From Acidimicrobiales bacterium (GTDB taxonomy: Bacteria > Actinomycetota > Acidimicrobiia > Acidimicrobiales > SHLQ01): a DNA stretch of 58,311 nt. Made by a program: the position numbers and the translations under genes. The DNA lies in assembly GCA_051011595.1 (NCBI GenBank), contig JBPCTQ010000065.1:1-58311 (forward strand). Direction: 5' to 3'. The notes beneath the pieces were generated by a model. The model was not told the origin of the DNA. It made no database searches and saw only the letters and a program-made list of their open reading frames with translations. Shown one piece after another: positions 49,225 to 49,467 of the stretch (the stretch's first letter is position 1; each line of letters starts with the position of its first letter).

Positions 49225-49285
49225 GTCCGGCACCGTACTCAACCAACACCGGCCGCGGGGAGCGGGGCGACCGGATCCCGAACGC

Positions 49286-49390
49286 GAAACGAGACCGGTG
49301 GGGGAACCGGTCTCGTTTCTCATCGACCTCGACTGATTGGGGGAACCAGGAGGGTCGGACTCCGAACGGATCCGGGGGAAGATCCGTTCG
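49286..49390 (-). ncRNA. three tandem stem-loops each presenting a UUCCCCC loop: 6C-like sRNA or structured 5' leader of the HAD-PlsC gene
   Basis: - Hairpin A (49390-49363): perfect 10-bp stem, loop UUCCCCCG.
- Hairpin B (49357-49324): imperfect stem, loop GUUCCCCCAAU.
- Hairpin C (49319-49286): perfect 13-bp stem, loop UUCCCCCA.

The strand is assigned from the upstream minus-strand promoter and the C-rich loops, and is not proven. Confidence 0.45.
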
Positions 49391-49403
49391 TGTTCTGAGA
49401 CTC

Positions 49404-49433
49404 AGTATGCCCGGCCGACACACATCTGTCCAA
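49404..49433 (-). promoter_or_regulatory. candidate SigA-type promoter (TTGGAC-18 nt-CATACT)
   Basis: -35 at 49433-49428 and -10 at 49409-49404 on the minus strand. This places a TSS about 6 nt before hairpin A. Confidence 0.35.
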
Positions 49434-49467
49434 CAGTTACCATCGATATCTGATATCTTTCCTAGAG

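What the first reader, a model, noticed from the sequence alone, without database searches (positions are those of the whole stretch)
49280..49440. Three tandem hairpins with the same UUCCCCC loop behind a good promoter: 6C-like sRNA or novel leader of the HAD-PlsC gene
**Structure.** Within about 105 nt there are three consecutive stem-loops whose loops carry the same heptamer, GGGGGAA on the plus strand and UUCCCCC on the minus strand.
- 49286-49319: perfect 13-bp stem, 8-nt loop.
- 49324-49357: imperfect stem.
- 49363-49390: perfect 10-bp stem, 8-nt loop.

The heptamers are spaced 39 and 35 nt apart.

**Transcription.** A TTGGAC-18-CATACT promoter on the minus strand would start transcription about 6 nt before the first hairpin. 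The longest ORF reading for the downstream gene would have to translate a perfect 13-bp palindrome, so this stretch is better read as RNA.

**Possible identity.** C-rich apical loops on tandem hairpins are the hallmark of the actinobacterial 6C sRNA family (B11 in mycobacteria), whose loops pair with G-rich targets. From memory, in corynebacteria and mycobacteria that sRNA lies next to a HAD-like phosphatase gene. That is reminiscent of the neighbour here, although the relative orientation I recall differs. The loops here have five rather than six Cs, and there are three hairpins rather than two. It may be a divergent member, an unrelated element, or a cis-acting leader controlling the HAD-PlsC lipid gene.
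Basis: partly seen in the sequence, partly recalled or inferred. Interest (0 to 1): 0.7.

Follow-up and report, generated by a model that had tools for sequence, protein, structure and literature searches.

The report
C-rich-loop small RNA beside LysR
This is a stand-alone small RNA gene with three hairpins that each display a run of Cs; it is conserved across most of the bacterial class Acidimicrobiia, always sits back-to-back with a LysR-type regulator gene, resembles the actinobacterial 6C RNA in design, and no Rfam family detects it.

Summary
Three hairpins with UUCCCCC loops lie on the minus strand at 49286-49390, behind a promoter-like TTGGAC-18-CATACT.

It is real and conserved. A covariance model built only from distant relatives finds the window element at 44.7 bits, as the only significant hit (E~1e-9) in 58 kb. 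A refined model finds one copy in 70 of 83 sources. All 25 modelled base pairs show compensatory changes, and the C-runs stay in the loops.

It is not a leader of the HAD-PlsC gene:
- That gene starts at 49224.
- In 67 of 83 loci it has its own TANNNT -10 box 6-9 nt before the start codon, the signature of a leaderless mRNA.
- In four rearranged loci the RNA leaves HAD-PlsC but stays 70-100 nt from a divergent LysR gene. The spacer between them is conserved: a 13-bp dyad, the -35 box and the -10 box.

My reading is a LysR-controlled, trans-acting sRNA whose C-rich loops pair with G-rich mRNA sites.

Rfam's 6C model does not reach threshold: no hit in the window, 29-32 bits in two relatives against a cut-off of 47. 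The unrelated ar14 model scores equally well, so homology to 6C is possible but unproven. I file it as a new member of a known kind.

The parts
49468..50385 (+). LysR-type transcriptional regulator gene, divergent from the sRNA. It has no cysteine and matches no specific NCBIfam equivalog.
   Evidence: Pfam HTH_1 plus LysR_substrate. NCBIfam hits are all far below their cut-offs. An ortholog lies 35-139 nt from the sRNA model's 5' end (mostly 70-100) in every locus whose retrieved DNA reaches that far.
49445..49457 (.). 13-bp dyad, GATATC-N-GATATC here and GATA-N5-TATC in the family consensus. Putative LysR recognition site, centred about -54 from the predicted sRNA start. It overlaps the putative -10 (TATCTT, 49454-49459, plus strand) of a probably leaderless LysR mRNA.
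   Evidence: Conserved block in the alignment of 56 intergenic regions. Size and symmetry match LTTR sites as described in PMC11495319. Binding is inferred, not shown.
49426..49436 (-). Conserved palindrome CTGTTGGACAG containing the sRNA -35 box TTGGAC (49428-49433). Candidate LysR activation site.
   Evidence: The consensus CtgcTtGacaGAT is nearly invariant across families.
49404..49409 (-). sRNA -10 box CATACT. Predicted transcription start about 49396-49398.
   Evidence: Promoter scan. A -10 with A2 and T6, 17-18 nt after the -35, is conserved in relatives (CATACT, CACAAT, TACCAT and others).
49363..49390 (-). Hairpin 1, apical loop UUCCCCCG.
   Evidence: Helix with compensatory changes. 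The loop holds a C-run of at least 5 in 56 of 70 members.
49324..49357 (-). Hairpin 2 (imperfect, two-part stem), apical loop UCCCCCA.
   Evidence: Helix 3 is 95% paired with all pairs covarying. C-run of at least 5 in 64 of 70 members.
49286..49319 (-). Hairpin 3, perfect 13-14 bp, loop UUCCCCCA. It is the terminator hairpin of the family.
   Evidence: I2. Helix 5 is 98% paired, 13 of 13 pairs covarying. C-run of at least 5 in 62 of 70 members. It is followed by a U-run of at least 4 in 45 of 70 members, but here by UCGCGUUCGGG.
49241..49274 (-). Fourth hairpin specific to this genome (49249-49274, loop CCCGCUCCCC) plus the U-rich tail UGUUGGUU (49241-49248). Possibly the actual terminator here, which would make the RNA about 156 nt.
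   Evidence: It aligns to the terminator hairpin of ar14. It is absent from the closest relatives L081, L083, L084 and L085.
49232..49237 (-). -10 box TACGGT of the HAD-PlsC gene, 7 nt before its ATG (leaderless mRNA).
   Evidence: TANNNT lies 6-9 nt before an in-frame start in 67 of 83 loci, against 0.26% at random positions.
47809..49224 (-). HAD-IB hydrolase / PlsC-type acyltransferase fusion gene. It is the usual but not obligatory downstream neighbour.
   Evidence: Pfam HAD plus Acyltransferase. The 471-aa database protein is identical.

Best explanation
The region 49275-49397 (minus strand, possibly extending to about 49241) is a separate gene for a small regulatory RNA of about 115-155 nt.

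It is transcribed from a sigma-70-type promoter (TTGGAC-18-CATACT). That promoter sits in a classic bidirectional LysR control region. A 13-bp dyad and a palindrome over the -35 box lie between the sRNA start and the start of the divergent LysR gene. LysR most likely activates the sRNA promoter in response to an unknown ligand and represses its own promoter.

The RNA folds into three hairpins that each display U-CCCCC-A in the apical loop. The last, long G+C-rich hairpin also serves as the terminator.

By analogy with 6C, the exposed C-runs are the seed regions. They would pair with G-rich stretches in target mRNAs (Shine-Dalgarno-like GGGGG/GGAGG sites) and repress translation, without needing Hfq.

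Shown here: the conserved gene, the structure, the strand, the promoter and terminator signals, the linkage to LysR, and the independence from the HAD-PlsC gene.

Inferred: LysR control, trans-acting base pairing, and the targets.
For: 1. Family membership without circularity. Model R1 was built from 22 distant orthologs and excluded the window and its close relatives. It hits 49274-49397 (minus strand) at 44.7 bits, E about 1e-9; the only other hit in the window is a 5.8-bit chance-level match.

2. Breadth. R1 finds one copy in 59 of 83 sources, and R2 in 70 of 83, never two. R2 also finds it in LysR-ascertained loci and in the cultured Actinospongicola halichondriae.

3. Structure.
- 94-95% of cells are paired against 61-63% in shuffles and 43-51% in slid controls.
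- 25 of 25 pairs have changes on both sides.
- A MAFFT-only alignment gives the same three hairpins, with 17 of 25 pairs compensatory.

4. Strand.
- G-U 109 cells against A-C 23.
- Fold z = -3.69 on the minus strand against -1.78 on the plus strand.

5. Loops. C-runs of at least 5 occur in 56, 64 and 62 of 70 members for H1, H2 and H3, while the stems change freely.

6. Discrete RNA. H3 is followed by a U-run of at least 4 in 45 of 70 members.

7. Not a leader.
- HAD-PlsC has its own TANNNT 6-9 nt before the start in 67 of 83 loci.
- Its N-terminus is fixed at 49224.
- In L030 and L040 the RNA lies about 2 kb from HAD-PlsC, with a TauE/SafE gene following it in L030.
- In L024 and L031 the LysR-sRNA pair is inverted as a unit.

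8. LysR coupling.
- The spacing is constant.
- The intergenic consensus is CAT-~10-GATA-N5-TATC-~10-CTGTTGGACAGAT-17-CATACT.
- This matches the LTTR bidirectional-promoter architecture described in PMC11495319.
- In the sRNA-less L087 (representative of L087-L090) the -10 region of this promoter has decayed.

9. Mechanism by precedent. The C-rich loops of 6C bind G-rich mRNA sites independently of chaperones (PMC6486639).
Against: - There are no expression data, so the transcript, its ends and its abundance are all predicted.
- In this genome H3 is followed by UCGCGUUCGGG, not a U-tract, and the terminator scan finds nothing. Read-through towards HAD-PlsC, or termination at the genome-specific fourth hairpin, are both possible.
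- No target was identified. A crude scan of the window for G-runs before start codons gave only weak leads.
- LysR binding is inferred from conservation alone. The dyad is G-N11-C rather than the canonical T-N11-A, and it is centred near -54 rather than -65.
- Several lineages have LysR and HAD-PlsC but no sRNA: L006, L007, L010, L087-L090 and Iamia majanohamensis. The RNA is therefore dispensable for whatever LysR does there.
- The covariation counts come from alignments fitted to the model.
Confidence: 0.7

Rival explanations
1. It is simply the 6C RNA (Rfam RF01066), a divergent ortholog in Acidimicrobiia. H2 and H3 would correspond to the two canonical 6C hairpins, and H1 to the extra 5' hairpin seen in mycobacterial 6C/B11. 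This is a rival on identity, not on mechanism.
For: - Same phylum, and the same design of C-rich apical loops with the last hairpin acting as terminator.
- Mycobacterial 6C also has three stem-loops.
- The 6C model aligns end to end (positions 1-75) on H2+H3 in L029 (32.1 bits, E 0.007) and L080 (29.4 bits, E 0.019).
- The H3 sequence of L080 is close to the consensus of 6C hairpin 2.
Against: - All scores are below the gathering score of 47.
- There is no 6C hit at E<=10 in the window, in L061, or in 21 whole loci.
- There is no hit at gathering threshold in the window or in 16 loci.
- The alphaproteobacterial ar14 model, which cannot be orthologous, scores as high or higher: 36.8 bits in the window, 31.6 in L080, 25.8 in L029.
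- C-rich loops are common in unrelated actinobacterial sRNAs, 9 of 25 in M. tuberculosis (PMC6486639).
- The 6C context (partitioning and pilus genes, Weinberg 2007; SigA promoter, no LysR) differs from the context here.
Confidence: 0.3
2. It is a protein-titrating (sponge) RNA. The three repeated identical loop motifs would bind and sequester a C-run-binding protein, as CsrB/RsmY do with GGA loops, rather than pairing with mRNAs.
For: - The same short motif is repeated in every apical loop, and the number of loops varies between lineages from 1 to 3, as in sponge RNAs.
- Pahlke et al. raise protein binding as a possible cause of the very high stability of 6C (PMC5014011).
Against: - No candidate binding protein is linked to the locus.
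- The only experimentally dissected relative in design (6C) acts by base pairing through the loops.
- Only 2-3 sites is few for a sponge.
Confidence: 0.12
3. It is a cis-acting 5' leader or attenuator, or a processed 5' UTR, of the HAD-PlsC lipid gene. Transcription from the LysR-controlled promoter would read through the hairpins into 49224.
For: - It is co-directional with and directly upstream of HAD-PlsC in most loci.
- H3 lacks a U-tract in this genome and in L083-L085, and the gap to the gene can be as short as 10-20 nt.
Against: - HAD-PlsC has its own -10 at leaderless distance in 67 of 83 loci and no Shine-Dalgarno sequence. A read-through transcript would therefore be poorly translated.
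- 45 of 70 members have a canonical U-tract terminator.
- The RNA is unlinked from HAD-PlsC in L024, L030, L031 and L040 but never from LysR.
- There is no alternative (anti-terminator) pairing, and the loops, not a ligand pocket, are what is conserved.
Confidence: 0.08
4. The stretch is coding: the HAD-PlsC protein starts at the ATG at 49323 and the hairpins are translated.
For: An ORF of 504 aa from 49323 exists.
Against: - Homologues are 470-476 aa and align from residue 1 of the 49224 start.
- The upstream stretch is conserved as paired RNA with compensatory changes, not as codons.
- The element occurs apart from the gene.
Confidence: 0.01

Closest known systems
6C RNA (Rfam RF01066; B11/ncRv13660c in M. 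tuberculosis, cgb_03605 in C. glutamicum, scr3558 in S. coelicolor)
   Same: - Phylum Actinomycetota.
- Tandem G+C-rich hairpins with runs of C in the apical loops, the last hairpin doubling as terminator.
- Stand-alone gene with its own sigma-70-type promoter.
- Mycobacterial forms also have three stem-loops.
- Sub-threshold, full-length alignment of the 6C model to H2+H3 in two relatives.
- The probable mechanism (C-loops pairing with G-rich mRNA sites) is taken from it.
   Different: - Not detected by the Rfam model at its threshold in any of the loci tested, and not at all in the window.
- About 115-125 nt against about 75-90 nt.
- Usually three C-rich loops rather than two, C5 in this genome.
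- A longer linker before the last hairpin.
- Different neighbourhood: a divergent LysR gene, against partitioning and pilus genes for 6C.
- A conserved LysR-type operator in the promoter, whereas 6C promoters are described as SigA/SigB housekeeping promoters bound by GlxR, RamA and LexA.
ar14 / CcsR 'cuckoo' sRNAs of Alphaproteobacteria (RF02344, RF02791)
   Same: - Two to four tandem hairpins whose loops carry a C-rich motif.
- This is the best Rfam score in the window: 36.8 bits, E 2e-5, spanning H2, H3 and the fourth hairpin.
   Different: - The loop motif there is CCUCCUCCC, not UCCCCCA.
- Different phylum.
- Scores are far below the gathering score of 58.8.
- The similarity is one of design and is best read as convergence.
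LysR-regulator / divergent sRNA pairs: GcvA-gcvB and OxyR-oxyS of enterobacteria
   Same: An sRNA gene is transcribed divergently from the gene of the LysR-type protein that activates it, from a shared control region (gcvA/gcvB: PMC1557403; OxyR/OxyS from general knowledge). The general LTTR bidirectional architecture is described in PMC11495319.
   Different: - The RNAs are unrelated (GcvB uses a G/U-rich seed and depends on Hfq).
- The regulator is unrelated in specificity. The LysR here has no cysteine, and 117 of 120 orthologs have at most one, so it is not an OxyR-type thiol switch.
- Control by LysR is inferred here, not demonstrated.
RoxS/RsaE of Firmicutes (from general knowledge, not tested here)
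   Same: A trans-acting sRNA with several C-rich motifs in unpaired regions that pair with G-rich Shine-Dalgarno regions. It is controlled by a dedicated transcription factor.
   Different: Different phylum, different fold, and no sequence relationship was tested or expected.

Membership tests
6C RNA (RF01066) | Score at or above the Rfam gathering threshold (47 bits) for the curated covariance model | tested here: not met
   - Window: no hit at gathering threshold and none at E<=10 in a 401-nt scan.
- 16 orthologous loci at gathering threshold: none.
- 21 loci in E-value mode: none.
- Small-region scans: L029 32.1 bits, L080 29.4 bits, L061 none.
6C RNA (RF01066) | Two hairpins, each with a run of at least 6 Cs in the loop (Weinberg 2007) | tested here: not met
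   - The window has three hairpins with C5 loops.
- Across the family the feature is often met. The commonest C-run length is 6 in H1 and H2 and 5 in H3; the range is 4-8 in most members, and a few loops have no C-run.
6C RNA (RF01066) | Occurs in Actinobacteria | tested here: met
   The window and its relatives are Acidimicrobiia, phylum Actinomycetota.
6C RNA (RF01066) | Genomic context: 200-300 nt from chromosome-partitioning or pilus-assembly genes. In mycobacteria, one gene away from Ms1. In C. glutamicum, next to cg0360. | tested here: not met
   Neighbours here are LysR, HAD-PlsC, a nucleoside phosphorylase, a carboxyl transferase and citrate synthase. That the 6C neighbour cg0360/Rv3661 is a HAD-type phosphatase rests on memory and could not be checked with these tools.
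6C RNA (RF01066) | C-rich loops pair with G-rich mRNA sites, independently of chaperones | not testable with these tools
   Needs target validation. Known for M. tuberculosis 6C (PMC6486639).
ar14 / cuckoo RNAs (RF02344) | Score at or above the gathering threshold (58.8 bits); CCUCCUCCC loop motif; Alphaproteobacteria | tested here: not met
   36.8 bits in the window, 31.6 in L080, 25.8 in L029, 17.7 in L061. The loops read UCCCCCA, and the phylum differs.
   - R1: 44.7 bits, E about 1e-9. R2: 70.8 bits.
- Covariation.
- Loops.
- LysR start at 49468, against a predicted sRNA start near 49397.
LTTR-controlled divergent target promoter | Regulator gene divergent from its target; dyad-symmetric 13-bp site upstream of the target -35; site overlapping the regulator's own promoter | tested here: inconclusive
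   The arrangement and a conserved 13-bp dyad GATA-N5-TATC plus the palindrome CTGTTGGACAG over the -35 are present in 56 aligned intergenic regions and fit the published architecture. The outer bases are G/C rather than T/A, and binding or activation cannot be tested here.

The most novel reading that the evidence does not exclude
The element is the Acidimicrobiia form of the 6C lineage and preserves its original wiring. That wiring would be a three-loop C-rich sRNA switched on by a ligand-sensing LysR regulator embedded in a lipid and central-carbon gene cluster (HAD-PlsC acyltransferase, acyl-CoA carboxyl transferase, citrate synthase). It would provide the first dedicated signal-responsive regulator known for any 6C-type RNA, a family whose physiological trigger is still unclear after almost 20 years. 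It would also link that RNA class to membrane-lipid or acyl-CoA homeostasis.
Probability: 0.2. Interest if true: 0.65.

Novelty: new member of a known kind. Interest (0 to 1): 0.5.

Why it matters
As far as I know, no sRNA of Acidimicrobiia has been characterised experimentally, although the class is abundant in soil, freshwater, marine and wastewater samples.

This work yields four things:
- A class-wide sRNA family that Rfam 15 does not detect.
- A working covariance model for it.
- A clear candidate regulator, the divergent LysR.
- A cultured carrier, Actinospongicola halichondriae CP171622.1, in which the prediction can be tested.

It also corrects gene models, because some callers may extend HAD-PlsC over the RNA. 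It documents leaderless promoters for both flanking genes.

If the link to 6C proves real, the LysR operator gives a handle on what signal controls 6C-type RNAs. If it does not, this is another independent invention of the 'C-rich loop against G-rich ribosome-binding site' solution in a high-GC lineage.

Tried and rejected
- **Rfam.** Nothing reached gathering threshold in the window or in 16 loci. E-value mode gave only sub-threshold ar14, ar7, 6C and CcsR1 hits plus obvious noise such as miRNA and lncRNA models.\n\n- **First alignment.** RNAalifold on a MAFFT alignment of 42 diverse members recovered only H3, because MAFFT misaligned the variable stems. This was solved by seeding a model on a homogeneous subset and realigning.\n\n- **Real 6C sequences.** I tried to obtain them for a direct comparison from paper text and supplements. 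None are held, so no reciprocal test of my model on genuine 6C was possible.\n\n- **Remembered synteny.** The '6C next to a HAD phosphatase' link could not be verified. Most ORFs in this high-GC DNA are spurious and the duplex energies were uninformative. Only one neat case emerged: GGGGGAA 4 nt before the ATG at 6255.\n\n- **OxyR idea.** Some LysR orthologs are named 'hydrogen peroxide-inducible activator' by JGI. I rejected this: the OxyR model scores 111 bits against a cut-off of 329, the window protein has no cysteine, and 117 of 120 orthologs have at most one.\n\n- **Searching for the family beyond Acidimicrobiia.** The 120 best LysR homologues were all at least 57% identical, so none was distant enough to be informative.\n\n- **Fourth hairpin as part of the family.** Rejected, because it is absent from the closest relatives.
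Full report
**Observation**

On the minus strand the sequence from 49397 to 49275 holds three hairpins:
- H1, 49363-49390: 10 Watson-Crick pairs plus a U-G pair, loop UUCCCCCG.
- H2, 49324-49357: a two-part, imperfect stem around UCCCCCA.
- H3, 49286-49319: a perfect 13-14 bp stem, loop UUCCCCCA.

The heptamer TTCCCCC is not over-represented in the window as a whole: 9 copies against 9.8 +/- 3.3 expected. Three of those copies fall within 81 nt, each in a hairpin loop.

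The only sigma-70-like site in 49000-49700 is TGGACA-17-CATACT at 49432..49404 on the minus strand, against 0.1 expected. This places the transcription start near 49397, 6-7 nt before H1.

The minus strand folds far better than shuffled sequence (z = -3.69, 0 of 200). The plus strand does not (z = -1.78).

**Organism and neighbours**

The window is from an Acidimicrobiales MAG. The database protein for the downstream gene is identical to the 471-aa reading from the ATG at 49224, and homologues are 470-476 aa. That gene encodes a fusion of a HAD-IB hydrolase and a PlsC-type acyltransferase. The divergent upstream gene (49468-50385, plus strand) encodes a LysR-type regulator.

**Conservation**

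I fetched 80 orthologous HAD-PlsC loci from GTDB genomes and 3 from closer relatives. In most of them, the 100-260 nt upstream on the sense strand hold two or three C-runs (C5-C8) spaced 35-45 nt. Each run sits in a hairpin loop, while the stem sequences differ completely between lineages.

I built covariance model R1 from 22 Ilumatobacteraceae-type sequences. The window and its close relatives were excluded from it. R1 hits the window at 49274-49397 (minus strand) with 44.7 bits, E about 1e-9. No other significant hit occurs in the 58 kb; a second match scores 5.8 bits (E = 5).

R1 then finds one copy in 59 of 83 sources. The refined model R2 finds one copy in 70 of 83, never two.

**Structure and strand**

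On the model-guided alignments:
- 94-95% of cells form standard pairs, against 61-63% after shuffling and 43-51% when partners are slid by 1-3 columns.
- All 25 modelled pairs show changes on both sides.

These alignments lean towards the model. However, RNAalifold on a plain MAFFT alignment of the seed set predicts the same three hairpins, with 17 of 25 pairs compensatory.

G-U pairs outnumber A-C 109 to 23, which supports the C-loop strand.

The loops keep a C-run of at least 5 in 56, 64 and 62 of 70 members for H1, H2 and H3. The run is usually flanked by U on the 5' side and A on the 3' side.

**Discrete RNA or leader?**

Four lines of evidence argue for a discrete RNA.

1. In 45 of 70 members H3 is followed by a U-run of at least 4, typically UUUCCCGUUUUC, which makes an intrinsic terminator.

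2. HAD-PlsC carries a TANNNT hexamer 6-9 nt before an in-frame start codon in 67 of 83 loci, against 0.26% at random positions. In the window this is TACGGT-7-ATG. There is no Shine-Dalgarno sequence. This is the actinobacterial signature of a leaderless mRNA with its own promoter.

3. The RNA's downstream neighbour is not fixed.
   - In L030 and L040 HAD-PlsC lies about 2 kb away, and in L030 a TauE/SafE permease gene follows the RNA.
   - In L024 and L031 the RNA and LysR are inverted as a unit, and in L024 the next gene on the RNA's strand is a carboxyl transferase.

4. The ORF from 49323 is excluded by the homologues' N-termini.

One caveat applies to this genome. The tail after H3 is UCGCGUUCGGG, with no U-tract. 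A fourth hairpin at 49249-49274 (loop CCCGCUCCCC) followed by UGUUGGUU may be the real terminator here. It is absent from the closest relatives L081 and L083-L085, so it is not part of the family.

**The constant partner is LysR**

In every locus where the contig reaches far enough, the 5' end of the RNA model lies 35-139 nt, mostly 70-100 nt, from the start codon of a divergent LysR ortholog.

I aligned the 56 intergenic regions. The consensus, written on the RNA strand, reads as follows:
- CAT, the LysR start codon
- about 10 nt
- GATA-N5-TATC
- about 10 nt
- CTGTTGGACAGAT, which contains the -35 box inside a palindrome
- 17 nt
- CATACT or CACAAT, the -10 box

The LysR-proximal half of the dyad reads TATCNT on the LysR strand, 8 nt before its ATG. 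LysR is therefore probably leaderless too, with its -10 inside the dyad.

This is the textbook bidirectional LTTR control region: a recognition site overlapping the regulator's promoter and an activation site at the target's -35 (PMC11495319). The unusual point is that the target is an sRNA gene, as in gcvA-gcvB (PMC1557403) and oxyR-oxyS.

The regulator has no NCBIfam equivalog. It has no cysteine, and 117 of 120 orthologs have at most one. The 'hydrogen peroxide-inducible activator' label that some orthologs carry should therefore not be trusted.

I also ascertained loci through LysR itself. They show the wider cluster HAD-PlsC <- (sRNA) <- | -> LysR -> carboxyl transferase -> citrate synthase.

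Some lineages lack the RNA although LysR and HAD-PlsC are adjacent: L006, L007, L010, L087-L090 and Iamia majanohamensis. In L087, which I read as representative of L087-L090, the -10 of the RNA promoter has also decayed.

The cultured Actinospongicola halichondriae carries the RNA (40.5 bits; sequence).

**Comparison with known families**

Rfam 15 has no match at gathering thresholds in the window or in 16 relatives.

In permissive mode the best hit in the window is the alphaproteobacterial ar14 'cuckoo' RNA, at 36.8 bits against a threshold of 58.8. 6C is not listed even at E<=10.

In small-region scans of relatives the 6C model aligns over its full length to H2+H3:
- L029: 32.1 bits.
- L080: 29.4 bits. 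Here H3 reads GAGAGGCCCCGCU..UCCCCC..AGCGGGGCCUUUCCCGU, against the consensus GacGgccCcCGCcucUCCCCCCcugGCGgGggcCguCCCuU.

These scores stay below the 47-bit threshold. They are matched or exceeded by ar14 (25.8 and 31.6 bits), and CcsR1 and sX13 also appear. L061 gives no 6C hit.

So the resemblance to 6C is real at the level of design. It is no stronger than the resemblance to families that cannot be homologous. C-rich loops are also frequent among unrelated actinobacterial sRNAs (PMC6486639).

The published 6C context differs (partitioning and pilus genes, Ms1, housekeeping promoter). I could not verify the remembered HAD-phosphatase synteny.

I therefore treat it as an undescribed family of the known class 'C-rich-loop sRNAs', with about a 30% chance that it is a very divergent 6C ortholog. 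No paper in the held library mentions 6C together with Acidimicrobiia.

**Mechanism**

The gene, the fold, the strand, the promoter and terminator signals, and the linkage to LysR are shown here.

LysR activation of the RNA and autorepression of LysR are inferred from architecture and conservation.

Pairing of the C-loops with G-rich mRNA sites to block translation is inferred from 6C.

Two alternatives remain open at low probability: a protein-sponge role and partial read-through into HAD-PlsC.

**Verdict**

It is interesting mainly for its tight coupling to a LysR regulator and for its possible bearing on the unresolved biology of 6C-type RNAs. It is not a new kind of system.

Noticed in passing
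window 49249-49274 (minus strand), tail 49241-49248: A fourth hairpin with a C-rich loop (CCCGCUCCCC) and a U-rich tail lies between the family's H3 and the -10 box of HAD-PlsC. It is absent from the closest relatives, so it is a recent, genome-specific addition that may serve as the terminator here.
   Followed up: partly
window 49232-49237 and the equivalent sites in L001-L083: The HAD-PlsC gene has TANNNT 6-9 nt before its start codon in 67 of 83 loci. The LysR gene has TATCNT about 8 nt before its ATG. Both flanking genes therefore look leaderless.
   Followed up: yes
window 6255 (minus-strand ATG), ORF 5521-6255: An RTX/NHL-repeat protein gene has GGGGGAA 4 nt before its ATG. This is the exact complement of the UUCCCCC loops, so it is a candidate target, but it is a single case with no statistical weight.
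   Followed up: partly
window 49430-49437 and 49491-49498: An 8-nt perfect inverted repeat (CCAACAGT / ACTGTTGG) joins the sRNA -35 region to the first codons of LysR. It could be chance or a second operator half-site.
   Followed up: no
window 46188-47759 (minus strand); also L082-L085: Downstream of HAD-PlsC lies a conserved gene for a protein of about 515-525 aa with long Thr/Pro-rich low-complexity runs. It gives a borderline Pfam 'Mucin' hit and is probably a secreted or cell-surface protein.
   Followed up: no
L087-L090, L091, L092, L084-L085: LysR is followed by, or overlaps by 4 nt, an acyl-CoA carboxyl-transferase gene and then citrate synthase. Together with HAD-PlsC this suggests that the regulator belongs to lipid or acyl-CoA metabolism.
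   Followed up: partly
L006, L007, L010, L087-L090, L091 (Iamia majanohamensis CP116942.1): Some lineages keep LysR and HAD-PlsC back to back, 56-111 nt apart, but have lost or never had the sRNA. L087 retains the dyad and a degenerate -35 plus one short hairpin without a C-rich loop.
   Followed up: partly
L015, L022, L034, L065; L005; L049, L053, L055, L061-L063, L066, L067, L074: Architectural variants of the family exist. In one clade the terminator loop is not C-rich (GAUCCACCCG). One locus has a single C7 loop. Several have only two C-loop hairpins, the form most like canonical 6C.
   Followed up: partly
L013 (CAMDLX010000091.1) and L075 (CAYFLC010000115.1): Two contigs titled Bifidobacterium MAGs carry the Acidimicrobiia-type LysR-sRNA-HAD-PlsC locus. 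They are probably mislabelled bins or binning contamination.
   Followed up: no
LysR orthologs P0141, P0157, P0178 and others: JGI names several orthologs 'LysR family hydrogen peroxide-inducible transcriptional activator'. The proteins lack the OxyR cysteine pair, so the name looks like an over-transfer.
   Followed up: yes
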